Assembly: GCA_028289135.1 (NCBI GenBank)
Contig: JAQGGW010000001.1
Coordinates: 12,018 to 76,017 of the forward strand
Direction: 5' to 3'
From: Candidatus Saccharimonadota bacterium
GTDB taxonomy: Bacteria > Patescibacteriota > Saccharimonadia > Saccharimonadales > JACDBH01
DNA length: 64,000 nt
Position numbers and translations under genes: made by a program. Shown here piece by piece: positions 309-40,669 of this stretch (positions within the stretch are counted from its first letter, which is position 1; each line of letters opens with the position of its first letter). The notes below the pieces were generated by a model, which saw only the letters and a program-made list of their open reading frames with translations, made no database searches and was not told the DNA's origin.

Positions 309-447
309 GAGTATTTACTCCCATTGCCCTATGCCTTGGAAGTTTCGGCACATTGATTTAGCCGCTGGAGACAGTTTTACGCTATTAAATCACTGTACTA
401 AAACCTCCCATGAACCCTCACTTTATAGCTAAAAACTCTGTAAAGCT
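309..447. ncRNA. long-hairpin element H1, copy 1 of 2 (homologous to 22394-22535)
   Basis: Hand alignment to 22394-22535. Arms 338-360 and 386-408 form an imperfect 23-bp stem. The 25-nt loop GCCGCTGGAGACAGTTTTACGCTAT is almost identical in the other copy. ORF-free. Confidence 0.45.
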
Positions 448-497
448 TATATTTTAGAAAATTTGTAAAAAACGCACCTTTAGGATAAAGTTAGCTC

Positions 498-2249: not shown

Positions 2250-2930
2250 ATGATCTCTGTTGAGTGTGGAGAACACGATAGCACTGGTTTTGCTGATTTA
2301 GAAGAAGCCATTTCCCTTGCCAAGGCGCAGGGTATTTCGAATGCAAAAAACGCGATTAGTCCTGATTTGCTGTGGGATCTTCACTCTTTTGCGCAGATGG
2401 TTGCAATGGGAGCTACAGACATACTACCAGGCGTTAGGCCTTCGGTGGCTGGGCTCGCACATTTGGCCGTTCATTCAATCGACCCATCCCAGGTATCGGG
2501 CGGCGTTAGTAAAGTGCTGAAAGGGGCTGAGGCAAAAATACAGCTAGGTGCCGGCGAGAGCCTACCACGATGGCGACCAACTAGCAGCCTTACTGGAGTT
2601 CGTATGGTGGCAATGACAGATGGTGCTAAATTTTACCCCCACACTGATGACTACGAAGGGCTAGTAGCCTCCTTACAGATTGCGGTAGATGACAAAAAGA
2701 TCATGAACGCCAAGGTAAATGGGTCTTGGGAGACTGAACAGATCGTTAAAGGAGACATAACATTTTTTGGTTGTGATACATTCAGTGCACAACCACGCGT
2801 TGAACATGGTTTTACTTTTTCCGGCCTTCTAGCAGTTGCTTTTACCCTGGGTCAAGATCCTTTTTACACCATTTCTGGTAACTATCCGTCTCAAAGAGAA
2901 CACCCTGAGTTCTTCGTAGATATTCAGTAA
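2250..2930 (+). CDS. hypothetical protein (226 aa)
   Basis: ORF track. AT-richer accessory stretch. Convergent with 2932-3249. Confidence 0.45.
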   Translation: MISVECGEHDSTGFADLEEAISLAKAQGISNAKNAISPDLLWDLHSFAQMVAMGATDILPGVRPSVAGLAHLAVHSIDPSQVSGGVSKVLKGAEAKIQLGAGESLPRWRPTSSLTGVRMVAMTDGAKFYPHTDDYEGLVASLQIAVDDKKIMNAKVNGSWETEQIVKGDITFFGCDTFSAQPRVEHGFTFSGLLAVAFTLGQDPFYTISGNYPSQREHPEFFVDIQ

Positions 2931-2931
2931 A

Positions 2932-3249
2932 TTAAACTAATACTAAACGAAAGTTATCAGATGCTACACGCAAACCTGTATCTTTGATATACTCCAGTTT
3001 CTTTTCCGATGACGAATCTCTTAAATCGCGCGGTAGACGTGAATTCAAGTAATAAAATAGGTCTGATACTTCAACTTTACGTTGATTATCTTCAATAGGA
3101 ATAATGCCTACTCTTTGCCAAACATCACTTTCAATATCTTCGTTAAGCTCAAAAACAAACTTACCATTAAAGCTGATGGTTCCGAATTCCTTCTTTAAAG
3201 CATCGTTAACCAACCTAAATTTTACAAGAGTATGAGCTTCCTTATTCAT
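2932..3249 (-). CDS. small protein of HipS-like size (105 aa), third gene of the helicase-kinase unit
   Basis: Starts 7 nt after the kinase stop. LFYYLNSRLPRDLRD loosely resembles the LLP motif of the HipA N-terminal subdomain. Tentative. Confidence 0.45.
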   Translation of the reverse strand: MNKEAHTLVKFRLVNDALKKEFGTISFNGKFVFELNEDIESDVWQRVGIIPIEDNQRKVEVSDLFYYLNSRLPRDLRDSSSEKKLEYIKDTGLRVASDNFRLVLV

Positions 3250-3256
3250 AAGCCAA

Positions 3257-4222
3257 TTATAGCATGCTCAGTAGTTCGTCTCTTCGAATAATAATGGAAC
3301 GTATTAGTAATTCTTTTCTATTAGTTGAATAATCTAACTCTTTCGCGTTCGGCATCTTAGCTATTGCTTTTGCAATCTCCATTAAAGAGGCTTGTCCAAG
3401 AGGTAGAACTGCTTTTTTAAATCGCTTACCCCATTCAGTATTTTCAATGATGTTTTGTCTAATTACCTCAAATACATTGCATTCATTCCCATCCGTATCT
3501 TTCAGGAATGAATAATTAGCACCAAATATATACTTGGATCTAAAGAGGTCTTCATTGGCTAAATATTCCCCGATCTTTCCTTCCGATTTAATTTCAAACA
3601 TCAGACTGCTGCCATGGTCATAAAGTGGTACAAAATGCCGTTTTTCAACAAGAGTGTTCTTCCCAAAAAGTAACTGCTGGCGATACTGCAAGTGCTCAAC
3701 AATCCCCCAGTTCTCATGATGTCGATCCATATTGCCAATGATTGCATCAAATACTATCATTTGAGCAAAACTTTGCAATAAGTCTTCTGGTGCGTAGTAC
3801 TGTTTTCGAATATCTGTTTCTATTTGACTTAGTGTAAGAGCGTCAGATGCAGTTCCGACAATTTTTGCCCCATATACAATTTCTTCATCTTTCAGGAATA
3901 TGTCCCGAGCCAGTGTACCAATTGGTTTCCAGTCACTAGGCAAATACTTACCGTAATTGCCCTTCAGGATCTTTATCATATTAGTTGAGGCTTTTTTAAT
4001 CACTACTTTCTGTATTGGTATACCGAATATCTCGCCCAAATGACTAGCTAAGCATTCTGCCCAGACCTCCCTAGAATTATGAGAGTAAGTCTTAAAAAGA
4101 AATCTTTTTCCTGTAATTGCATGCTCTAGCGTGACCCTTGGCCTACTACCTCCGGATACTTGGATTCTAATTGTGGGTTTGTAACGTGCATGGTCTATTG
4201 TCTCTAAAGTAAAGTGTTTCAT
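3257..4222 (-). CDS. HipA_C / PI3-4-kinase-fold Ser/Thr kinase (HipT-like, 321 aa)
   Basis: Catalytic loop GNMDRHHENWG (DxHxxN) and Mg-site-like LYDHGSS. The start ATG overlaps the helicase stop (ATGA at 4219-4222). Confidence 0.7.
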   Translation of the reverse strand: MKHFTLETIDHARYKPTIRIQVSGGSRPRVTLEHAITGKRFLFKTYSHNSREVWAECLASHLGEIFGIPIQKVVIKKASTNMIKILKGNYGKYLPSDWKPIGTLARDIFLKDEEIVYGAKIVGTASDALTLSQIETDIRKQYYAPEDLLQSFAQMIVFDAIIGNMDRHHENWGIVEHLQYRQQLLFGKNTLVEKRHFVPLYDHGSSLMFEIKSEGKIGEYLANEDLFRSKYIFGANYSFLKDTDGNECNVFEVIRQNIIENTEWGKRFKKAVLPLGQASLMEIAKAIAKMPNAKELDYSTNRKELLIRSIIIRRDELLSML

Positions 4223-5766
4223 GCAATGATCTCTTCGCCGAAGTGTTTTTTGAGGCGGGCGCGGATGGAGCCGGGATGGCGGCCTAATAATTTGCTGAGC
4301 TTTTTAACTTCGGTGATAGAGGCAAAGAGTTTTATTAGTTTTTCGTCTTCGGTTTTGCTCCATGGTTTGTAGGCGTTTGGGTAGTCGGCACGCATTTTGT
4401 CGAGTTTTTCTTGCCAGGCACCGTTTTTTACGGCTTTGGGCTTTTCTTCTGGTTCGGGCTTTAGCTTGCGCTCCGCTTCCCTGGCAGACCAGCTTGCAAT
4501 TACATCTTGATTGTCACGCACGGCGGCTTCGCTTCGGGCACGAAGCTCGGCGTCAATCTCGCGCGCCAGTGGCGAAACACGCAGTGCCATACCGTTAAAA
4601 CCGTCTAAAATCAGGTGTTTTAGACCGCGGACACGGCTTAAAGCCACATAGCCCATGCCCTCGACAAATGCCCGCCTAAGGTCAATCCGGGCTGCATCCA
4701 GCGTCATACCTTGGCTTTTGTGCACGGTAATGGCCCAAGCTAACCGAAGCGGTAACTGCGAAAGCTGTGCCCGCCGGCGCTCACCGTCCACTAGCTCCCA
4801 GGTGTCTGGTTTTATCGTTACTTCACGACCGCTTAGCAGCTGCACAATCGGGTAATCACTGCCGGGCTCAAAGCCCACTACTGTCCCGAGCGAGCCATTT
4901 ACATATTTCTTTTCCTGGCTGTTTTTAATGCACATCACAATCGCGCCTTTTTTTAACCGCAATGTTTCGCTGGCCAAACATGACCGTTTAAGTGTCTCAA
5001 CATATTGTTTGCCTCCGGTTGTTTCCATCGGATACTCATGCTCTTCGCCGTCAAGCTCGGCCAAATGTTCGAGGTTAATAGTGTCCACATCGGCATTGGT
5101 CGTCAGGAGCCGTGTGCGCGGTGTAAAAGGGTCATCCACCGCTTCCCCACGCGCCGTTAGCGCGTTTAGCTGGCTCTGCTTTAAAAATCCTGCCCGGATT
5201 CCGTTTAAAATGTCAGTGTAGGCGGTGTCGTCCACCTGTCGGTATTGCCGTTCCAAATAACAAACCGTAAATGTGCCGCTAATCCAAGCCTGCGAAGCAG
5301 TTACAAAACTTCCTGCCCTGCTGTCGTGCCGGCTAACGGGCGGCAGCTGGAAAAAGTCTCCACAAAGCACCACCTGGATGCCGCCAAAAGGGCGGTCGCC
5401 GCCGCGCACAGTCCGTGCAACTTCCTCCACCATGTCCAGGCGGAAGTCGTGCAGCATGCTAATTTCATCAACTATTAAAACGTCGGTGTTCATAATGGTG
5501 TCGTGCCGCGCCTTGGAGAGTTTTTGGAAAAAACCTCGGCCCAGTTCGTCCCGGACGCCTATCCCGCTCCAGGCGTGAAGCGTGTTGCCGTTTAAGTGCG
5601 TTGCCGCAAGCCCTGTCGTGGCAGTCACGGCAATGCTCTTGCCATCCTTGCGCGCCCGGCGGATAAACTGATTCAAAACAAAGGTTTTACCGGTACCAGC
5701 AGCACCAGTCAGCAAAACTGACTGCCCCGATTCTAATATTGCTAGTGCTTCGTCCTGTGTCATCAA
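4219..5766 (-). CDS. Pif1/RecD-family SF1 DNA helicase with C-terminal HTH-like tail
   Basis: Walker A GAAGTGKTF, motif II VDEISM, GDFFQLPPV, TVHKSQGMT. The basic C-terminal ~60 aa look like a helix-turn-helix. Confidence 0.85.
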   Translation of the reverse strand: MMTQDEALAILESGQSVLLTGAAGTGKTFVLNQFIRRARKDGKSIAVTATTGLAATHLNGNTLHAWSGIGVRDELGRGFFQKLSKARHDTIMNTDVLIVDEISMLHDFRLDMVEEVARTVRGGDRPFGGIQVVLCGDFFQLPPVSRHDSRAGSFVTASQAWISGTFTVCYLERQYRQVDDTAYTDILNGIRAGFLKQSQLNALTARGEAVDDPFTPRTRLLTTNADVDTINLEHLAELDGEEHEYPMETTGGKQYVETLKRSCLASETLRLKKGAIVMCIKNSQEKKYVNGSLGTVVGFEPGSDYPIVQLLSGREVTIKPDTWELVDGERRRAQLSQLPLRLAWAITVHKSQGMTLDAARIDLRRAFVEGMGYVALSRVRGLKHLILDGFNGMALRVSPLAREIDAELRARSEAAVRDNQDVIASWSAREAERKLKPEPEEKPKAVKNGAWQEKLDKMRADYPNAYKPWSKTEDEKLIKLFASITEVKKLSKLLGRHPGSIRARLKKHFGEEIIA

Positions 5767-5834
5767 ATATCCTTTAGTAACAGTATAGAGTAATGCCCCG
5801 CCTGAACTTGGTCAAGAATTAAATCTACAACACA

Positions 5835-6467
5835 CTATTTCTTGGTAGGTTTTTTGTTGAAGCCTTTATAAGCTAGGTCGCGGCGCTTTTCGTCGAGCCG
5901 GATAATGTATTTGTCGAAAGGTTTTAATAGGCTCGAATATTGCCAGTTTGGCGCCAGCAGGCTGTCCAGCTTTTGCTGCTCCACAAGGTATTCAACCAGG
6001 CCAAAGAAGTCCCCGTCCCCTGATACAACGACGGCTTTGTTATAATTTGGCATTTCCTTAACGGCATAGAGCACCAGCTCGGCGTCAACATTGCCCTTTG
6101 TCGCCGGTTTTTTATCTTCGGGCTTTTCGGTATGAGTTTTAATCCGCTCGGCAAGGTCAGCTTTTTCTTGGTCGGTTGACTGTTTGGCAAACATTTCGAG
6201 CGTTGGTTTTAATACAATCAAATAACCAAGGTCATGCATCTGGTCATACAGCTTTTCGTTGTCCGGCAAATAGCCAATAAACATATAGGCTTTCTCGACG
6301 TTGTGAACTTCTTTTAAATACAACCGAAACCGTCGCCAGTCCATTTTCCAACCCATTTTTTGGATTCCAAGGTTCAGGTTTTGGCTGTCAATAAAGGCGT
6401 AGTTGGCTTTAGCGGGCTTGGGTTGCTGCTTATTCTGCGGTTTTTTATTTCGCCGGAACGGTTTCAT
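5835..6467 (-). CDS. NYN/LabA-like domain protein (putative RNase fold)
   Basis: AFIDSQNLNLG near the N-terminus and VVSGDGDF, typical of the NYN (PF01936) family. Confidence 0.75.
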   Translation of the reverse strand: MKPFRRNKKPQNKQQPKPAKANYAFIDSQNLNLGIQKMGWKMDWRRFRLYLKEVHNVEKAYMFIGYLPDNEKLYDQMHDLGYLIVLKPTLEMFAKQSTDQEKADLAERIKTHTEKPEDKKPATKGNVDAELVLYAVKEMPNYNKAVVVSGDGDFFGLVEYLVEQQKLDSLLAPNWQYSSLLKPFDKYIIRLDEKRRDLAYKGFNKKPTKK

Positions 6468-6487
6468 TTGTCTATATCATACCATCT

Positions 6488-6871
6488 TTAGATTTTGCGT
6501 GAATCGTAGGCCCAATGAAGTAGTGCTTGGCGCTGACGACGCCGGCAAGTTAAATCCCCCGGCATACAGTATTTCTTAATCTGGCCTGCGTGCCGGCGGA
6601 TGGCTTTCCAGCGTTTTATTTGGCGCTGATCTTCGGCCGGGATTCTCCGCCCCAAATAATAACGGCAATACCACTGGAACCAGCCGCGCGGATCGTCGTC
6701 GTATATCCAGCCTTTTGCTTGCCAAACACTCAGCGGCTGGCTGGCAGCAACTTCGAAAAAGTTCAGCATTGGGTCGCCGACTGGGCTCAACCTAGCATTT
6801 TTTGTCCACTCGGCCGGAAACTCGTTGTAACTGTCAAAATAATGCCCGTTAAACACACCTAGCTCAAACAT
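6488..6871 (-). CDS. conserved hypothetical protein (127 aa)
   Basis: ORF track. Distinctive GWFQWYCRYYLGRR...QIKRW segment. Family not identified. Confidence 0.55.
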   Translation of the reverse strand: MFELGVFNGHYFDSYNEFPAEWTKNARLSPVGDPMLNFFEVAASQPLSVWQAKGWIYDDDPRGWFQWYCRYYLGRRIPAEDQRQIKRWKAIRRHAGQIKKYCMPGDLTCRRRQRQALLHWAYDSRKI

Positions 6872-6986
6872 CTCCTGAGGTGTTAATTCGGGCTTAAATT
6901 CAGCATTAAAATTTTTGCCTACAGGTTCAACCAGATCATAGGTATAATCCTGGAACCTATCTGTTACGTGTACTTTTTTTATATAC

Positions 6987-7412
6987 CTAGACTCCCATAA
7001 AACCGATGATTAGGGCCATGACAAGCAAAGTTACAAGTTCATGACCGGCATTCACAACAGTTAGCAGCTTACGGCGCTCTTCAAACGTGTCATGCACATA
7101 TAGCCTAGTGGCTGTAAAGCCAAGCCATAACCATGCCGCGGTACTTAGCGCGTCAATAAGGTAGCTATGACCAAAAAACCGGTTACTTAAAAAAGCGACA
7201 TGTGCCAAAATATAAGCCGTAACAAGCGAAGCTACAAAAACTGACCCATACATCCATGCCATTTTGCCAGCGCTAGCGCCTTTGCCCATTTTTGATTTTG
7301 TCATCTTCATCCAGCCATTGCCAAACACCTTAGGCGCGTACCAGATTGACCCTACGACCATACTCGAAACAGCAGCCAGCACCACTGCTAGCCAGTTAAT
7401 TTCAACACTCAT
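6987..7412 (-). CDS. DUF1761-like membrane protein
   Basis: Four hydrophobic spans. N-terminal INWLAVVLAAV...GSIWYAPKVFG is typical of DUF1761. Confidence 0.65.
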   Translation of the reverse strand: MSVEINWLAVVLAAVSSMVVGSIWYAPKVFGNGWMKMTKSKMGKGASAGKMAWMYGSVFVASLVTAYILAHVAFLSNRFFGHSYLIDALSTAAWLWLGFTATRLYVHDTFEERRKLLTVVNAGHELVTLLVMALIIGFMGV

Positions 7413-10966: not shown

Positions 10967-11395
10967 TTATTTTTTGCCTTTTGCAATAAAGTCCAGCCGG
11001 GCCTGGTTGGCGTATTTGTCGGCCATTTCGTTGCCTGGGTCGTCGTTGTGACCACGAACCCAAACCAAAACAGCTCTGGAGTTGCGGTACAGCGGGCAGA
11101 CTTCCTGCACTATGTCGAGATTTTTTATCGCCCCGCCCTTTTTCTTCCAACCGTTGGCTTCCCAGCCAATAGACCACTTGGTAATGACATTAATCCAAAA
11201 TTCGCTGTCAGTATAAATCTCGCACTCTTCGCCCTTTGAATCTTTGATGGCCGCGATGATTGCTAAGCCTTCCATCCGGATGTTTGTGGTGTTGGCTTCC
11301 CCGCCCATAATCGCAGGTTTCATATCTTTAATTACAGCAAAGCCGCCATTGCCCGGGTTTGGCTCACAACTACCGTCGGTGTAGTACACAATCAT
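10967..11395 (-). CDS. rnhA: ribonuclease HI
   Basis: YTDGSC (Asp), MEGLA (Glu), IYTDSEF (Asp), GHNDDPGNEMADKYA (His/Asp). Abuts its neighbours with 0-nt gaps. Confidence 0.9.
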   Translation of the reverse strand: MIVYYTDGSCEPNPGNGGFAVIKDMKPAIMGGEANTTNIRMEGLAIIAAIKDSKGEECEIYTDSEFWINVITKWSIGWEANGWKKKGGAIKNLDIVQEVCPLYRNSRAVLVWVRGHNDDPGNEMADKYANQARLDFIAKGKK

Positions 11396-13925: not shown

Positions 13926-14162
13926 CTATCGCTGACTGAGGTTTTTTAAGGCTGTCTCGTGGCGCTTAATCAGCTTGCGGGCAATTTCTACAACCTCGGT
14001 CTGATGTGTGTCTTCAGCTACTGGCCGGCTAATAGATACTTCAAGCTCTTCGCCGGCTTTAACATCATAAAAGCGGGCGTCGCGCGCCGGGATAGTAACT
14101 GCCAGGCTGCTGCCAACTTTAATAACCTTTTGGATTGACTTGATTTCCATGTTTTTACTCAT
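13926..14162 (-). CDS. AbrB/MazE/SpoVT-fold antitoxin (Phd-equivalent)
   Basis: VGSSLAVTIPARDARFYDVKAGEELEV swapped-hairpin motif. 78 aa. Upstream of doc. Confidence 0.8.
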   Translation of the reverse strand: MSKNMEIKSIQKVIKVGSSLAVTIPARDARFYDVKAGEELEVSISRPVAEDTHQTEVVEIARKLIKRHETALKNLSQR

Positions 14163-14228
14163 ATGGGCATTATAACAATATTATAATATTATTGCAATAA
14201 TTTTTATGATTTTGAGCGATATACTAGG

Positions 14229-21680: not shown

Positions 21681-22340
21681 CTACGGCGAAAAGGTTATGC
21701 TTGGGAGCACTGTATTCAGGAAGTCGCTGGTATAATTGCTGCCTTCGGTCCAGATAATAATCGTCTTGTCGCGGATTGGCAGAAGCACCAAAGTACCAGG
21801 AGTCGTGCCGTGGATCTGGCCAGTAATTATTGAACCTAGCACACTTGGGACCTTTGGAGCGCGGTAAGCCGTTACAGTTGAAGTGCCAGCCTTTGCTACC
21901 GCGTCATATGCCTTTAACAGCGTCGGATAGGCGGTACCTGAGATCTGCACCCGCAGCGCAAACTGGGCAGTCGAAGAAAGATCAGGAATAAAATCCGGGT
22001 TATAGTAATTATTTACAATCAGGTTAAGGTTGCTTGTGCCAATATATGAGTTCCAGGTTTTTGGAAAGCTATAGGTCAAAGACCCGTAGGTATCTGGGCC
22101 CGTAAAGCTTTTTGTAGGGAACTTTTCAGTTTCCCTAAAAGCCGCATCCTTTTTGATATCCTCAGCAGCCACGGCTTTCTTGGCAGCAACTTCGGCTTTC
22201 GCGTCGCTGTTGTTCTTATAATCCTGGCGGCTCATAAAAGCCCAGGTTCCAAAACCTGCCGCAACCAAAAAGAACAAAGATAAGATGACCAGCGGCAGCA
22301 GCAAAGACCCTGTTTGATTAAGCTTACGCATATTAGTCAT
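21681..22340 (-). CDS. membrane-anchored extracytoplasmic protein (219 aa), unknown function
   Basis: N-terminal TM span LLLPLVILSLFFLVAAGFGTWAF. The rest is hydrophilic. Confidence 0.6.
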   Translation of the reverse strand: MTNMRKLNQTGSLLLPLVILSLFFLVAAGFGTWAFMSRQDYKNNSDAKAEVAAKKAVAAEDIKKDAAFRETEKFPTKSFTGPDTYGSLTYSFPKTWNSYIGTSNLNLIVNNYYNPDFIPDLSSTAQFALRVQISGTAYPTLLKAYDAVAKAGTSTVTAYRAPKVPSVLGSIITGQIHGTTPGTLVLLPIRDKTIIIWTEGSNYTSDFLNTVLPSITFSP

Positions 22341-22393
22341 ATAGTAGCATAAGCCCCTTGCTCCAGTGAAGCCCTTCCAATCGTATCACTGCT

Positions 22394-22535
22394 AAGTCTT
22401 TGCTCCCGTCGTCCCACTCCTTGGAAGTTTAGGCACATTGATTTAGACCGCTCAGAGACAGTTTTACGCTATTAAATCAACGTGCCTAAACTTCCCGTAA
22501 CATTAACCATGTAGCTGAAAGTCTCGTGAAGCCCC
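22394..22535. ncRNA. long-hairpin element H1, copy 2 of 2
   Basis: Arms 22423-22445 and 22473-22495 pair at 22 of 23 positions. The single A.C becomes G.U on the minus strand. The 27-nt loop is conserved with copy 1. ORF-free region. Confidence 0.5.
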
Positions 22536-22562
22536 CGGATGGGGCTTCACCTTTGGTTTGGA
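22526..22562. other. GC-rich hairpin GTGAAGCCCC/GGGGCTTCAC followed by CTTTGGTTTGG
   Basis: 10-bp perfect stem (22526-22535 / 22541-22550) with a 5-nt loop. The U-rich trailer is on the plus strand only. A third GTGAAGCCC copy lies at 22366-22374. Confidence 0.4.
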
Positions 22563-22570
22563 GTTCTTTG

Positions 22571-22815
22571 TGAGAAATAGGTAGCGAATAAGTGACTAGC
22601 GGCCGGAGCCAAAGACCTTAGGGGATGGCAGGCATCGCCCGCAGCCACGGCTAAGACTCGCCAAAGCTACAACAAAATCCAGCCGAGGACTGTTTGACGG
22701 AGCGTTTAGCTCCTAGTTCCGCAGGCTTGTTGTAGGCTTTGGCTGGAGGCTTACCGAGATGTGGGTGGCCTGACGGCGGCTAAGGTCTTTAGCTGAGAAA
22801 GGACGGCTACTTTCC
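22571..22815 (-). ncRNA. rod-shaped structured element R, copy A (homolog of 40244-40490, inverted)
   Basis: Closing helix 22607-22620 / 22781-22794. Apical core 22678-22697 and 22715-22733 is identical to copy B. The 17-nt terminal hairpin covaries. No ORF >=60 aa. Strand is tentative. Confidence 0.55.
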
Positions 22816-23304
22816 TAACGGGTATTTATAAAGCATCAAACCGCCCTTTTTGGCAGCGGGTTTGCGGCCGGGGATTTTAAAGGCGTAGCTCACTAGCTTA
22901 ACTGGGTTAGATAAATCTTTCGTAATTTTTTTATCGAGTCTCGGCATAAATTTGTCTAACAAAAACACATAAATCCCGTCACACTCAGGCAAAGTTACCT
23001 GCCAATAATTGCGGCATTTAAATGTTACCAGCTTGCGGTAGCGCCAGCAGCTAATCTGGCTGTACCAGACCAAAAGCGGGTTCAGCTCGTAACCAATCCC
23101 GCTTATTCCCTGCTTGGCAGCACGCTTTAAAACCCGTCCGTCGCCGCTGCCCAGCTCCAGCAAAATCTGCCCCGGTTTTAGATCCAACAGGTCCAGTGCG
23201 TTTTGTGCCTGCGGCTTAAGTGTTGGCAAATAAGGTGCCCCAAACAAGATAACAAATGAAAAGACGAGGATTAAAAAAACGGCGAAAAGTATAGCAATAT
23301 TCAT
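22807..23304 (-). CDS. class I SAM-dependent methyltransferase with N-terminal TM span
   Basis: SAM motif I LLELGSGDGRVL. 165 aa. Confidence 0.75.
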   Translation of the reverse strand: MNIAILFAVFLILVFSFVILFGAPYLPTLKPQAQNALDLLDLKPGQILLELGSGDGRVLKRAAKQGISGIGYELNPLLVWYSQISCWRYRKLVTFKCRNYWQVTLPECDGIYVFLLDKFMPRLDKKITKDLSNPVKLVSYAFKIPGRKPAAKKGGLMLYKYPLGK

Positions 23305-26021: not shown

Positions 26022-26051
26022 TTTTACCGCCTATCCTCGCCCTTAAAGGCT

Positions 26052-26114
26052 AAAATTCCTGAAAAATATATAAGCTTATATCTAGATAGGCTTAGTATAT
26101 TTTTCAGGAATTTT
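26052..26114. terminator. AT-rich perfect 19-bp inverted repeat, probable bidirectional terminator
   Basis: AAAATTCCTGAAAAATATA at 26052-26070 and its exact complement at 26096-26114. The 25-nt spacer is itself near-palindromic. T-runs flank it on both strands. Confidence 0.55.
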
Positions 26115-26156
26115 ATCTCTTTAATCATCGTGGATATTCTGCAAAGATGCCATTTT

Positions 26157-30745: not shown

Positions 30746-31552
30746 TTAACCTAGTTCTGGACGTGGAGCGGCTGTATCCCAAAGATATGACTCTTGCTGT
30801 AGTTTGTTTAGTACATCATTTAGTATCGCATAGCCCTTTTTACCGAGCAGCGAAGGGTCGGTTGCAGCGTTTGCGTCAAATACATTAATGTCTTGCTTGC
30901 CGCTATAGACCGCAAGCTCGCCTGCAGGGCCAAAGAATACACTAGCGGCCAAATCCGCCATTCTAGTATCCTGTTCACGTTTGTGATTGACGCTGGTGTC
31001 GTTAGGGTCAGGAGTAAGTAAGCCAAGAGCATTGCCAAGTCCGAAACGTACACCACGGGGGTCAACAGGTGTGTCTATACGAAAAGATGGGACTACCTCT
31101 AGCGAACGGTCGTTTACGCTACGGCCTGCATCAGAAAGACGCGAGCCAAATGGAAGTAGCAAAACCTGAGCTACATTACGTTCACGAGCGACGGCAAACA
31201 TGCTGCCAGAACCCCGAGGAACAAACAGGTGCGTAATTCCCTTTTGACCGTTCATTACTAGAGGGTGACGCTCGGCAACTGTACCTTCGTAAGGCTTACC
31301 TGGACGTGCGATATTTTGTTCTGAACCTGATTTTTCCAAAGCTTTATTGAGGTCTTTTAGGTCTTTTGCAGAACCAACCATGTCTCTTGTTAGAGCATCG
31401 GCAGTCCATACGTTAAAATCGCGACGACCTTTGTGCTCTTGTCTGACTAGCGCTGGACCAGCGTTTCTGGCAGCATCCTCAATACGCTTCGCCCGATCTA
31501 CTGATTCGGGTGATTTTTTGGTTGATGTATTTTCGCGGTGTAATAGTTTCAT
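30746..31552 (-). CDS. orphan hypothetical protein (268 aa)
   Basis: ORF track. No motif, TM span or signal peptide recognised. Confidence 0.5.
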   Translation of the reverse strand: MKLLHRENTSTKKSPESVDRAKRIEDAARNAGPALVRQEHKGRRDFNVWTADALTRDMVGSAKDLKDLNKALEKSGSEQNIARPGKPYEGTVAERHPLVMNGQKGITHLFVPRGSGSMFAVARERNVAQVLLLPFGSRLSDAGRSVNDRSLEVVPSFRIDTPVDPRGVRFGLGNALGLLTPDPNDTSVNHKREQDTRMADLAASVFFGPAGELAVYSGKQDINVFDANAATDPSLLGKKGYAILNDVLNKLQQESYLWDTAAPRPELG

Positions 31553-31695
31553 AACTGTTATGTTTTACTTAAGTTGTTATGTTTACATAATAGCATAAGC
31601 ATGATAGATTGTCAATATCATGATACTTTAATACTACTACGCCACCTTTGTTATGTATATAAAATAATTTACCTACTGATTGTTTGTTTTCAATC

Positions 31696-31723
31696 AAAAA
31701 ACGCCCCTTCCGGAGCGTTTTTT
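31696..31723. terminator. bidirectional rho-independent terminator (twin of 32545-32572)
   Basis: AAAAAACGCCCC-TTCC-GGAGCGTTTTTT. Confidence 0.75.
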
Positions 31724-31757
31724 AACTTAAGTATCAATAAAGATAGAAATTATATGC

Positions 31758-32489
31758 TTAGCGTTTGCCGTACGAACGGTTTACGAGTTTATTAGTAAGC
31801 TTCCCTGCCACGTGCGCAAGTCTTTTACTAACAGGTTTGCGAGCCGATTCAATTTCGTTTGCCCATTTTTCGCCTAAAACTTCTTCGTGCTCTCTAGTTG
31901 CCGTAACGCGAACCTTAACATCTGCAGCTTCTCCAAGTGCGCTGAGCGTGATGCTGCCACCACGGTTGCGCTCTACATGAAGAAACTTTTCGGGGATATT
32001 ATCGGGTAGCGTAACAGGATTACGTGGCTGGTCGGTACGCATTACGCTATCGCCCCAGGCATAAAAAGCTGTTCCCTGTTTACCACCTTTAATATCATCA
32101 GCTGCTCTACTGCGTGAACCTGCTAATGCGATCACATCTGTATAACGGGTTGTACTATGGTCTTTGCTTACCCATACACCCATTGCGCTGTTTTTTGCAA
32201 GAGTATTGATATACGTTTCAACTGGTATTTGGCCATTCCAGCGTTCTGAAAAATTCGGGTCGTCGATATCAATCTTAACAATATGCAAGCTTCCGGCTTC
32301 ACCAAGATCCACCGTAGCCATAACTGGTGCGCCACCAATGACATTTCCTTTAAGTGGATCGGTCGCTGTAATGGATTCGCCCGGATTTAAAACCGCGTCA
32401 ACAACAGTGGCATCGGCATATTCACTGCCGGCAATTCGACCATCGAAGTTATTTTGTTGATCTTGATTTATGGTATTTGGTGTACTCAT
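31758..32489 (-). CDS. orphan hypothetical protein (243 aa)
   Basis: ORF track. Bracketed by two near-identical terminators. Confidence 0.5.
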   Translation of the reverse strand: MSTPNTINQDQQNNFDGRIAGSEYADATVVDAVLNPGESITATDPLKGNVIGGAPVMATVDLGEAGSLHIVKIDIDDPNFSERWNGQIPVETYINTLAKNSAMGVWVSKDHSTTRYTDVIALAGSRSRAADDIKGGKQGTAFYAWGDSVMRTDQPRNPVTLPDNIPEKFLHVERNRGGSITLSALGEAADVKVRVTATREHEEVLGEKWANEIESARKPVSKRLAHVAGKLTNKLVNRSYGKR

Positions 32490-32544
32490 CCCAACATTTT
32501 AGCATAAGCTTTGTATTTTGTCAATTAGGTGGTGACTTCAAACT

Positions 32545-40210: not shown

Positions 40211-40243
40211 GCTTGTGTTTAATTATAACATCTTGGCCCAGTA

Positions 40244-40490
40244 CTGAAGTCTCCCTTTCTTAGCTAAACCCCTTCCATCCTGGCATGCCGCACCCACCTT
40301 TAGGTAAGCTCCCGGTCAAGAGACACAACAAGCCTGCGGAACTTGATGCTATACGCATCTTCAAACAGTCCTCGGCTGGAATTTGTTGTGTCCTTGACGG
40401 AGCTTAGCCTCAAAAAGTGTGTGAGCATGCCAGGCTGTAAGGTGTTTAGCTTGCGGACGCTTAACACTTTTTTGCTACTCATTTCTCATA
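40244..40490 (+). ncRNA. rod-shaped structured element R, copy B (inverted relative to copy A)
   Basis: Closing helix 40262-40274 / 40439-40451. Apical core 40325-40343 and 40361-40380 is identical to the reverse complement of copy A. Terminator-like GTGTTTAGC-N8-GCTTAACAC-TTTTTT at 40442-40473 on the plus strand. Strand is tentative. Confidence 0.55.
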
Positions 40491-40518: not shown

Positions 40519-40669
40519 AGGACTATTCCCCCAATACTCTCAAAGGTACTAAAGAACCCTGAGAGGAGCCGGGAAATGGCAGATGAGACCAGGCTATTTT
40601 ATATATAGGCTCATCTGCCATTTCACCGCGCGTGAACGGTACCTTTGAGAGTATTGGGGGAATAGTCCT
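40519..40669. repeat. 150-nt near-perfect palindromic element (MITE-like or structured RNA)
   Basis: Perfect 30-bp outer arms at 40520-40549 / 40639-40668. Perfect 15-bp inner arms at 40573-40587 / 40610-40624. AT-rich apex. Confidence 0.6.

What the first reader, a model, noticed from the sequence alone, without database searches (positions are those of the whole stretch)
22571..22815. Two-copy ~245-nt rod-shaped structured-RNA candidate with compensatory base changes (copy A)
The 466-nt gap 22341-22806 has no ORF >=60 aa in any frame, in a genome where most gaps are under 100 nt. Its right part aligns by hand with the reverse complement of 40244-40490. Conservation follows the pattern expected of a functional RNA rather than a decaying repeat. 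The apical core TCCAGCCGAGGACTGTTTGA (22678-22697) and AGTTCCGCAGGCTTGTTGT (22715-22733) is identical in both copies. The 17 nt between them form a 5-bp hairpin that differs by two double substitutions (GGAGC/GCTCC vs GATGC/GCATC). The adjacent 9-bp stem section (GCCAAAGCT/AGGCTTTGGC vs GTCAAGGAC/GTCTCTTGAC) carries four more compensatory pairs. The closing helix (AGCCAAAGACCTTA/TAAGGTCTTTAGCT vs AGCTAAACACCTTA/AAGGGGTTTAGCT) carries one, and the GGCTAAG/CTTACC helix one. The same bulged C is kept in both copies. Single-stranded flanks are also conserved (GAGAAAT.GGTAGC, CCTTTCT.AGCTAAA). I found no RNase P (GGAAAGUCCGGGC), tmRNA, SRP (GGAA tetraloop region) or T-box hallmarks.
Basis: seen in the sequence. 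Interest (0 to 1): 0.85.

Follow-up and report, generated by a model that had tools for sequence, protein, structure and literature searches.

The report
Widespread mobile rod-hairpin element family
The two ~240-nt "rod RNAs" are real and keep their base pairing, but they are two copies of a very widespread, apparently uncatalogued intergenic hairpin element that moves between sites in related genomes and carries an almost invariant ~23-nt core in at least ten bacterial phyla.

Summary
Copy A (22571-22806, +) and copy B (40254-40484, -) align at ~72% identity. Both fold as long rods. With their closest relatives, 20 of 64 pairs carry compensatory double changes.

They are not a private two-copy sRNA. 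The hits cover Saccharibacteria and other Patescibacteria, Beta- and Gammaproteobacteria, Coriobacteriia, Lachnospiraceae, Bacteroidales, Gastranaerophilales, Spirochaetota, Myxococcota and others, often several per genome. P2 and P3 covary strongly. Most members also have a U-run plus an A/U hairpin about 65 nt downstream.

Rfam 15 has no match, no neighbouring gene recurs, and orientation is independent of the flanking genes. In the closest relatives the orthologous sites are empty or hold the other copy type, in the other orientation. One such copy is broken by a nested insertion.

Best reading: a non-autonomous, single-strand-folded mobile repeat whose invariant core is the functional module. 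Whether it acts as RNA or ssDNA, and its partner, are unknown.

The parts
22571..22806 (+). Copy A: the whole stretch that aligns with copy B (5' flank GAGAAAUAGGUAGC, the rod, and the 3' CUUUAGCUGAGAAAGG mini-hairpin remnant)
   Evidence: Alignment with copy B. The A-type homologue in L242 matches window 22398-22794 at 79%.
22607..22794 (+). Copy A rod: paired arms from the closing helix AGCCAAAGACCUUA / UAAGGUCUUUAGCU up to the apex
   Evidence: Inverted repeat I4, MFE fold, alifold pair table.
22681..22727 (+). Copy A conserved core. P2 AGCC (22681-22684); 5' strand GAGGACUGUUUGA (22685-22697); P3 hairpin region (22698-22714); 3' strand AGUUCCGCA (22715-22723); P2' GGCU (22724-22727).
   Evidence: Exact-core searches. 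CM R1 hit 22677-22731, 48.3 bits, E = 1.6e-12.
40254..40484 (-). Copy B unit (B-type). Its limits are set by where similarity ends to the B-type copy that sits at a different site in L247.
   Evidence: blastn against L247: 86-88% identity over window 40484-40337 and 40336-40254. Fold. Inverted repeat I2.
40331..40377 (-). Copy B conserved core (P2, GAGGACUGUUUGA, P3 GAUGC/GCAUC, AGUUCCGCA, P2')
   Evidence: CM R1 hit 40327-40381, 47.4 bits.
22398..22560 (+). Companion of copy A: a separate palindromic repeat ('H1', 23-bp stem at 22423-22495) followed by a GC hairpin with a U-rich tail (22526-22560). It lies next to the A-type rod in L242 as well.
   Evidence: Inverted repeat I3. Terminator-like site. 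79% identity over 398 nt to the L242 ftsX|CHAP gap. H1 alone also occurs at window 334-453 and in L242, L245 and L246.
40222..40227 (-). Context: TATAAT -10 element, extended by TG at 40230-40229, for the 294-aa gene. It lies downstream of copy B and is conserved in all relatives.
   Evidence: Alignment of the prfB|294-aa intergenic regions of the window and four relatives.

Best explanation
Copies A and B are two diverged members (A-type and B-type) of a widespread, non-autonomous intergenic repeat.

Anatomy. One strand (+ for A, - for B) folds into a long hairpin. The arm sequences are free to change as long as they pair. The apical part carries a nearly invariant asymmetric core: P2 (3-4 bp), a GA/GCA loop, a 3-bp helix GGA/UCC, a CUGUUUGA/(G)AGU loop, and a variable hairpin P3. 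In most family members a U-run and an A/U-rich hairpin follow about 65 nt downstream of the core. The window copies keep only a short remnant of this.

Shown:
- the structure and its covariation;
- the cross-phylum distribution and the multi-copy state;
- no linked gene;
- orientation independent of the neighbouring genes;
- gain, loss and relocation between close relatives, and decay.

Inferred: the core is the recognition or active module for a factor encoded elsewhere, either a highly conserved host machine or a widely transferred enzyme. That factor would act on the folded single strand, and this interaction would underlie the element's spread or retention. The rod presents the core. In this window the copies are passengers in two intergenic hot spots, not regulators of the adjacent genes.

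Whether the active species is RNA or ssDNA is unresolved. I lean slightly towards RNA.
For: Family and structure:
- The pattern AGGACTGTTTGA-N10-30-AGTTCCGCA gave at least 120 loci in GTDB species representatives, against about 6 expected by my own estimate. A P2-specific variant gave at least 120 in metagenomes.
- P2 and P3 covary: 232 cells changed on both sides, covariation score 0.644 against 0.13 or less for slid partners, 0 of 500 shuffles as high.
- The core double variant GAGCAC.../...GUUGCGCA occurs in L024 and L060. L242 shows G-C to A-U at another pair of the same 3-bp helix (GGA/UCC). Both support that inner helix.
- The arms are paired, with a median of 36 Watson-Crick pairs, in 115 elements whose arm sequences are unrelated.

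Strand specificity:
- G.U outnumbers A.C: 110 vs 84 in the arms, 35 vs 17 in P2/P3, and 16 vs 4 for isolated non-WC pairs in P3.
- Purine-purine mismatches number 217 against 108 pyrimidine-pyrimidine.

3' module:
- 118 of 185 unique elements have the hairpin 60-78 nt downstream of the core, against 16 with one upstream.

Mobility:
- The prfB|294-aa gap lacks the element in L242-L245, whose prfB is 84-92% identical to the window's.
- Site A is a 99-nt empty gap in L248.
- In L247, site A holds a B-type copy in gene-sense orientation, split by a 63-nt palindromic insertion inside the core.
- An A-type copy sits in the ftsX|CHAP gap of L242.
- More distant syntenic loci (L054, L184, L097, L174) carry elements in yet other gaps.
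- Myxococcota copies include truncated ones.

No cis partner and no cis role:
- No recurrent diverse neighbour protein among 685 and then 1141 neighbours.
- Flanking-gene orientations are 35 (+,+), 44 (-,-), 33 convergent and 21 divergent.
- The conserved -10 of the downstream gene lies after copy B.
Against: - No transposase, TIRs or unambiguous target-site duplication were identified. The ~7-nt A-rich direct repeats at the ends can also be read as repeated 3'-module remnants.
- Conservation sits at the apex rather than at the ends. This is the reverse of classical MITEs, so the mobility mechanism is unknown.
- The relocations are inferred from only two or three related genomes.
- Both A-type and B-type lineages persist in two genomes whose proteins are 82-92% identical. 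That could reflect retention for a host function.
- Near-invariance of 23 nt across phyla is hard to explain by a horizontally moving, lineage-specific enzyme. It fits a universal host partner or catalysis better, which is closer to the sRNA or ribozyme rivals.
- Compensatory changes in long palindromes can arise from template-switch repair without selection.
- No expression data exist.
Confidence: 0.55

Rival explanations
1. A stand-alone trans-acting small RNA gene family, with A and B as paralogues. The rod RNA would be transcribed from its own promoter and bind a universally conserved partner through the GA-rich core, the way 6S RNA or Y RNAs bind theirs.
For: - Core invariance across at least ten phyla.
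- G.U outnumbers A.C, and tandem G.A-type loops are typical of RNA-protein sites.
- In Gallionella-type copies a GC hairpin with a U-run follows on the same strand.
- The module of a U-rich single strand followed by a hairpin resembles Sm/Hfq-type sites (the resemblance is from my own knowledge).
- Both A-type and B-type lineages are kept in two related genomes.
Against: - No promoter-like site at either window copy.
- No conserved upstream sequence in betaproteobacterial or gut-family alignments.
- Sites are not syntenic among close relatives, and one copy is interrupted.
- Many copies per genome, some truncated.
- The Dechloromonas-type units lack a U-run terminator.
Confidence: 0.22
2. A cis-acting transcript element of the neighbouring genes: a terminator, a 3'-UTR stabiliser or insulator, or a riboswitch-like leader.
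For: - Copy B is co-oriented with prfB and directly downstream of it.
- Mild enrichment between convergent genes: 25% against a 17% background.
- Stable hairpins can block 3' exonucleases (general knowledge).
Against: - Orientation relative to tandem genes is random: 35 sense against 44 antisense.
- Copy A is antisense to both of its neighbours.
- The conserved -10 of the 294-aa gene lies downstream of copy B, so B is not its leader.
- No U-tract follows the rod.
- Close relatives lack the element at the same sites while keeping the same genes.
- A structural barrier would not need a conserved asymmetric core.
Confidence: 0.08
3. The core is catalytic: a small self-cleaving or otherwise reactive ribozyme carried by a selfish repeat, as hammerhead, twister and HDV-like ribozymes are carried by repeats.
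For: - Invariant nucleotides are concentrated in internal loops flanked by freely covarying helices.
- Multi-copy, patchy, cross-phylum distribution.
- Independence from any linked protein gene.
Against: - No similarity to any ribozyme family in Rfam at E <= 5-10.
- The two loops are separated by only 3 bp, so loop-loop docking as in hairpin or twister-sister ribozymes is not possible. No pseudoknot partner was found.
- Transcription is not shown.
Confidence: 0.08
4. A chance or decaying segmental duplication, with a palindrome maintained only by mutational mechanisms and no function of any kind.
For: Template-switch repair can homogenise palindrome arms (general knowledge). Some relatives' copies are disrupted.
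Against: More than 240 independent loci share the same 23-nt core while their arms are unrelated. Covariation is far above the controls.
Confidence: 0.02

Closest known systems
ERIC / IRU elements of Enterobacteria (and YPAL-type relatives)
   Same: Intergenic imperfect palindromes of about 100-250 nt that fold as long hairpins. They are multi-copy, occur in either orientation, are present or absent between related strains, and carry no coding capacity. RNA-level constraint has been proposed for them (from my own knowledge; reviews PMC3184786 and PMC2229807 came up but I did not read them).
   Different: No sequence similarity. ERIC is confined to Enterobacteria and Vibrio, whereas this family spans at least ten phyla. 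Here the arms vary freely and only an asymmetric apical core, plus a 3' A/U hairpin, is conserved.
REP / REPIN elements mobilised by RAYT (IS200-like HUH) transposases; IS200/IS605 end hairpins; integron attC sites
   Same: The substrates are folded single strands. Recognition depends on hairpin shape with mismatched or extrahelical bases. There are no classical TIRs or TSDs. Inverted pairs are common, as seen here in L174, L080 and betaproteobacteria. Orientation is biased with respect to replication: flank GC skew is 66 negative against 34 positive.
   Different: REPs are 20-40 nt, species-specific, and begin with GTAG. attC sites conserve the base of the stem, not the apex. No RAYT, TnpA or integrase gene recurs near the elements. 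The folded strand lies preferentially on the C-rich strand, which is opposite to what I recall for IS608-type elements.
Classical bacterial MITEs (Correia/NEMIS, RUP, BOX, IS630-derived)
   Same: Non-autonomous and intergenic, they fold as rods because of inverted ends, and they accumulate in hot spots together with other small palindromic repeats. Here these are the H1 repeat and the 63-nt nested insertion. The Myxococcota copies end in TAGTT...AACTA next to TA.
   Different: MITEs conserve their terminal inverted repeats, which match a parent IS, and vary in the centre. This family does the reverse, and no parent IS is known. The window copies are only ~72% identical.
6S RNA / Ms1 (rod-shaped RNA-polymerase-binding sRNAs)
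   Same: A rod-like fold of about 200 nt, and two paralogues are possible.
   Different: No large central bubble. No Rfam 6S hit. Multi-copy, not syntenic, with identical core sequence across phyla.
Kink-turn-like GA motifs
   Same: Tandem G.A/A.G next to a regular helix (UGA-[P3]-GAG), with a C-G pair closing the other helix. A second GA/GCA loop is present.
   Different: The bulge would be 5 nt, not 3. In the window copies the second G.A is replaced: A.U in copy A and A.A in copy B.

Membership tests
Any Rfam 15 family | cmscan score at or above the family's gathering threshold, or at least a suggestive E-value | tested here: not met
   No gathering-level hits in the window or in 28 related loci (the only hits were one tmRNA and one tRNA elsewhere). 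E-value mode on 22300-22950 and on 4 loci gave only miRNA/snoRNA-like noise outside the element.
6S RNA | Rod with a large central bubble; essentially single-copy and vertically inherited | tested here: not met
   The folds show only small internal loops. The family is multi-copy and non-syntenic.
SRP RNA (4.5S / 6S) | Domain IV with a GNAR tetraloop and symmetric/asymmetric loops; a hit to the Rfam SRP models | tested here: not met
   No SRP model hit even at E <= 10. The apical hairpin P3 is variable in sequence and length.
Classical MITE | Conserved terminal inverted repeats matching an IS family | tested here: not met
   The ends differ between lineages. Conservation is apical.
Classical MITE | Target-site duplications flanking each copy | tested here: inconclusive
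   Direct repeats of about 7 nt occur at the ends: TGAGAAA/TGAGAAA in copy A, GAGAAAT/AAGAAAG in copy B, ACTAAAA/ACTAAAA in the L247 copy. They may instead be repeated 3'-module remnants. The empty sites are too diverged to align.
Classical MITE | Several near-identical copies within one genome | tested here: inconclusive
   Met in Myxococcota Prado146, Marinobacterium, Gallionella and a gut organism. Not met in this window: two copies at ~72% identity.
REP/REPIN-RAYT | 20-40-nt palindromes with a 5' GTAG, and a cognate RAYT gene flanked by REPs | tested here: not met
   The unit is about 190-300 nt. No recurrent neighbouring gene was found. Whole genomes could not be searched for a RAYT gene.
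Guide or partner RNAs of mobile-element enzymes (TnpB/IscB omegaRNA, IS110 bridge RNA, retron msr-msd) | Encoded immediately next to the cognate nuclease, recombinase or reverse transcriptase in at least part of the copies | tested here: not met
   All-vs-all clustering of 685 and 1141 neighbouring ORFs found only housekeeping genes and strain-level synteny.
Riboswitch / cis-regulatory leader | Consistent sense orientation upstream of a recurrent gene class | tested here: not met
   Orientation is random: 35 against 44 in tandem settings. The -10 of the downstream gene lies after copy B.
Intrinsic terminator | GC-rich hairpin immediately followed by a U-tract | tested here: not met
   The scan finds none at the rod ends. 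The only terminator-like site (22526-22560) belongs to the upstream companion.
Kink-turn | Canonical helix, 3-nt bulge, tandem sheared G.A/A.G, non-canonical helix | tested here: inconclusive
   Judged by sequence only. The family consensus fits with a 5-nt bulge. The window copies lose the second G.A. No 3-D test was possible.
Phage-borne element | Presence in viral contigs | tested here: not met
   No exact-pattern matches in IMG/VR.

The most novel reading that the evidence does not exclude
The invariant GA-rich core, with its 3' U-run/A-U hairpin, is a new kind of functional nucleic-acid module. It would be either a small catalytic RNA or ssDNA, or a mimic that recruits a universally conserved host machine. 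Such a module would let a gene-less, hairpin-shaped element persist and spread across essentially all bacterial phyla, including genome-reduced Patescibacteria. That would make it a new class of selfish structured element, defined by its apex rather than by its ends.
Probability: 0.15. Interest if true: 0.9.

Novelty: new variant of a known kind. Interest (0 to 1): 0.68.

Why it matters
Small palindromic intergenic repeats are normally lineage-specific and are defined by their ends. Here a 23-nt asymmetric core is kept letter-for-letter from Saccharibacteria to Betaproteobacteria, Coriobacteriia and gut Firmicutes, while everything around it covaries. No linked gene exists, and I found no entry in Rfam 15 or in the searchable literature.

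That pattern points to one of two things: an unrecognised interaction with a very conserved partner, or a new mobility or catalytic mechanism.

For annotating this genome, the result means that the two long "empty" gaps are repeat-insertion hot spots, not regulatory regions of prfB, ftsEX or the neighbouring genes.

Tried and rejected
- **Rfam.** Gathering and E-value modes on the window and on 32 related loci gave nothing.
- **ARAGORN.** No tRNA or tmRNA.
- **Coding potential.** The core has a stop in one frame, and the P3 length varies over 10-30 nt with no 3-nt periodicity. No ORF of 40 aa or more lies in the copy A gap.
- **Phage origin.** No hits in IMG/VR.
- **First metagenome pattern.** CCAGCC...GGC was too strict and found nothing.
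- **Linked protein.** Two rounds of neighbour clustering plus Pfam found only housekeeping genes.
- **Plasmid collection BLAST** of a Dechloromonas unit. Only the A/U-hairpin piece matched unannotated DNA.
- **Literature.** Searches with the core strings and with descriptive terms, plus a term search (no hits) inside the 2024 conserved-MITE survey, turned up no description.
- **SRP, 6S, riboswitch, terminator, omegaRNA, bridge RNA and retron readings.** Rejected as set out in the membership table.
- **Inversion between the two inverted copies.** Considered, but gene order is collinear with the relatives.
- **Copy A's upstream hairpin H1 as a degenerate inverted partner.** Considered, but H1 proved to be a separate repeat family.

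Full report
**1. The observation**

The region 22571-22806 (+) aligns with the reverse complement of about 40250-40490.

Each copy folds into a long rod:
- Copy A: -102.6 kcal/mol, z = -3.7.
- Copy B: -108.1 kcal/mol, z = -7.6.
- The complementary strands fold 8-10 kcal/mol less well.

A covariance model built later finds only these two copies in the 64 kb, at 48.3 and 47.4 bits; the next hit scores 11 bits. The gap holds no ORF of 40 aa or more. The window has no tRNA, tmRNA or Rfam hit.

I ran RNAalifold on copy A, copy B and the closest relative of each. It gave 64 pairs, 20 of them with double changes that keep the pair, and the bulged C in GGCUAAG/CUUACC is kept in all four sequences.

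**2. It is a member of a very large family**

I scanned one genome per GTDB species for AGGACTGTTTGA-N10-30-AGTTCCGCA. The record titles name:
- Saccharibacteria and other Patescibacteria (Parcubacteria, Magasanik-, Falkow-, Kaiserbacteria, Gracilibacteria);
- Betaproteobacteria (Gallionella, Methylotenera, Dechloromonas and others);
- Gammaproteobacteria (Marinobacterium, Zhongshania and others);
- Coriobacteriia and Eggerthellaceae;
- Lachnospiraceae;
- Bacteroidales;
- Gastranaerophilales;
- Spirochaetota and Leptospirales;
- Myxococcota;
- Desulfobulbaceae;
- Campylobacteraceae.

Several are isolate genomes, and many assemblies contribute several loci. A P2-specific variant of the pattern gave another 120 or more metagenome loci, including a multi-copy family in a human-gut organism and about 20 Saccharibacteria-type relatives of the window copies. 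IMG/VR viral contigs gave none.

**3. Anatomy of the family**

From the base of the hairpin to its tip:
- P1 is a long stem of unrelated sequence between lineages, with a median of 36 Watson-Crick pairs per element and up to more than 80.
- A 5' internal loop of 0-8 nt follows.
- P2 is 3-4 bp. Its sequence varies between elements but the two sides stay complementary: GGC/GCC 48 times, GCC/GGC 9, AGC/GCU 8, and also CGC/GCG, GAC/GUC, AUC/GAU, CCU/AGG and others.
- The 5' strand of the core is GAGGACUGUUUGA.
- P3 is a variable hairpin of 10-30 nt.
- The 3' strand of the core is (G)AGUUCCGCA, followed by P2' and P1'.

On 89 diverse sequences, P2 and P3 are 81% paired, against 25-39% when the 3' partners are slid. 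The covariation score is 0.644 against 0.13 or less, and 0 of 500 shuffles reach it.

Relaxed matching shows a common U-to-C variant, GAGGACUGUCUGA. It also shows a double variant, GAGCAC.../...GUUGCGCA, in two loci. The A-type copy in L242 has G-C changed to A-U at another pair of the same 3-bp helix. These variants support a 3-bp inner helix GGA/UCC. That helix sits between two purine-rich loops, GA/GCA and CUGUUUGA/GAGU.

In 118 of 185 unique elements, a hairpin with a U-rich 5' arm lies 60-78 nt downstream of the core. Its consensus is UUUUGG-UUACUUUCUUUUG-loop-CAAAAGAAAGUAA. Only 16 elements have such a hairpin upstream. The window copies keep only a short remnant, CUUU-AGCUGAG-AAAG.

Non-canonical pairs are strand-asymmetric:
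- G.U against A.C is 110:84 in the arms, 35:17 in P2/P3, and 16:4 for isolated positions in P3.
- Purine-purine mismatches outnumber pyrimidine-pyrimidine mismatches 217:108.

So one particular strand is the folded, constrained one.

**4. What it is not**
- *A known RNA family.* No Rfam 15 family matches, at gathering thresholds or at E <= 5-10, in the window or in 32 related loci.
- *An RNA tied to a neighbouring gene.* No protein family recurs next to it. The neighbours are ordinary housekeeping genes. The only large clusters are strain-level synteny or spurious ORFs across GC-rich elements.
- *A cis-regulator.* Orientation relative to flanking genes is random: 35 co-oriented, 44 anti-oriented, 33 convergent and 21 divergent settings. 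Convergent gaps are only mildly enriched, 25% against a 17% background.
- *A transcription unit with a recognisable promoter.* No sigma-70-like promoter is found at either window copy. Alignments of betaproteobacterial and gut-family copies show no conserved upstream sequence.
- *A leader of the downstream gene.* A conserved TGnTATAAT lies 14 nt before the ATG of the 294-aa gene, downstream of copy B.

**5. Mobility**

The window comes from a Candidatus Saccharibacteria MAG; its prfB is 100% identical to P0001. I fetched the orthologous regions from relatives whose prfB is 84-92% identical. Gene order is collinear.

| Site | Window | Relatives |
|---|---|---|
| prfB\|294-aa gap | B-type copy, gene-sense | No element in L242, L243, L244 or L245. 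Two of these gaps are only 105-145 nt; the others hold unrelated palindromic DNA. |
| 165-aa\|219-aa gap (site A) | A-type copy, antisense to both genes | 99 nt and empty in L248. In L247 it holds a B-type copy, 86-88% identical to window copy B, in gene-sense orientation and split inside the core by a 63-nt palindromic insertion. |
| ftsX\|CHAP gap | No element | In L242 (same genome as L247) it holds an A-type copy, 79% identical over 398 nt. |

More distant syntenic loci (L054, L184, L097, L174) carry elements in still other gaps. Truncated copies occur in Myxococcota. Inverted, divergently arranged pairs occur in L174, L080 and many betaproteobacteria.

The arms travel with the core: the same B-type arms are found at two different sites. 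They are therefore part of the element, not copied host flank.

**6. Further clues**

Read on the element's strand, the GC skew of the flanking DNA is negative in 66 loci and positive in 34, among loci with significant skew (p = 0.002). Some of these loci are not independent. Both window copies follow this rule, on either side of a skew switch near 32 kb. This bias fits a process coupled to replication or to the strand bias of host transcription, but it does not decide between RNA and ssDNA.

**7. Interpretation**

Best supported: a non-autonomous mobile repeat that folds as a single strand, with its functional module at the apex.

The cross-phylum invariance of the core, without any linked gene, is the unusual feature. 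It argues for one of three things: a very conserved partner, a widely transferred enzyme encoded elsewhere, or intrinsic catalysis. I could not discriminate among these.

The closest known analogues in behaviour are ERIC/IRU, REP/REPIN and MITE-type repeats. The element fails the defining features of each, as the membership table shows. A stand-alone sRNA gene family remains a serious rival at about 0.2.

One caveat applies to the structural evidence: compensatory changes in long palindromes can arise by template-switch repair, so they do not by themselves prove RNA function.

**8. Verdict**

As far as Rfam 15 and the searchable literature show, the family is undescribed. My literature search cannot exclude a description in subscription journals.

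Noticed in passing
window 22398-22529 and 334-453; also L242 11363-11491 (reverse) and 14067-14219, L245 about 11201-11271, L246 11201-11277: The long hairpin upstream of copy A ('H1', 23-bp stem at 22423-22495) is a separate repeat family. A second copy lies at window 334-453, and there are copies in the prfB and ftsX gaps of relatives, at 75-91% identity. It sits beside the A-type rod in two genomes.
   Followed up: partly
window 40519-40669: A nested, perfect palindrome lies directly upstream of copy B: 31-bp outer arms at 100% complementarity and a 20-bp inner hairpin. It is not part of the B-type unit, and it has no copy in the fetched relatives apart from the same strain. The same gap in relatives holds other, unrelated palindromes, so this intergenic site appears to be an insertion hot spot.
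   Followed up: partly
L247 12058-12120: A 63-nt hairpin-forming insertion (-30 kcal/mol) interrupts the core of the B-type copy between AGUUCCG and CAGGC. This is a nested mini-palindrome, possibly another small mobile element.
   Followed up: partly
window about 31000-32500: GC skew changes sign here: negative over 1-32 kb and positive over 32-46 kb, with the cumulative minimum near 31-32 kb. Most genes stay on the minus strand on both sides, and no dnaA is present; the neighbours are CTP synthase, a response regulator and hypothetical proteins. The cause is unexplained.
   Followed up: partly
window 40222-40230 (-) and 22342-22347 (-): Conserved -10 elements (TGnTATAAT and TACTAT) lie only about 10-14 nt upstream of the start codons of the 294-aa and 219-aa genes in the window and its relatives. 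This suggests very short or absent 5' leaders. It also suggests that the 219-aa gene starts at 22331 (MRKL...), not at 22340.
   Followed up: partly
window 26051-26115: A perfect 20-bp inverted repeat, TAAAATTCCTGAAAAATATA / TATATTTTTCAGGAATTTTA, with a 25-nt spacer, lies in the gap between xseA and the LPG-synthase-like gene.
   Followed up: no
L054 (titled Chloroflexi bacterium PMG_070), 2852-7183: This contig is syntenic with window 19.8-26 kb (xseA, the 165-aa and 219-aa genes, a histidine-kinase-like gene, a response regulator, RecO) at 26-44% amino-acid identity (six genes). The synteny suggests it is probably a Patescibacteria/Saccharibacteria contig mis-binned as Chloroflexi.
   Followed up: no
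L001, L011, L017, L042, L060, L062, L065, L069, L080, L174: Elements often occur as divergently oriented inverted pairs about 100-250 nt apart. In such a pair the A/U hairpins become outer inverted ends. The pair may be the real mobile unit in some lineages.
   Followed up: partly
betaproteobacterial units, e.g. L009, L011, L047 (about 110 nt either side of the core): The motif CGAG-NNNN-GCAG, which is the 3' strand of the core, recurs twice more at the base of the rod (CGAGUAGCGCAGG on the 5' side, CGAGCAACGCAGGG on the 3' side). This suggests an internally repeated binding module.
   Followed up: no
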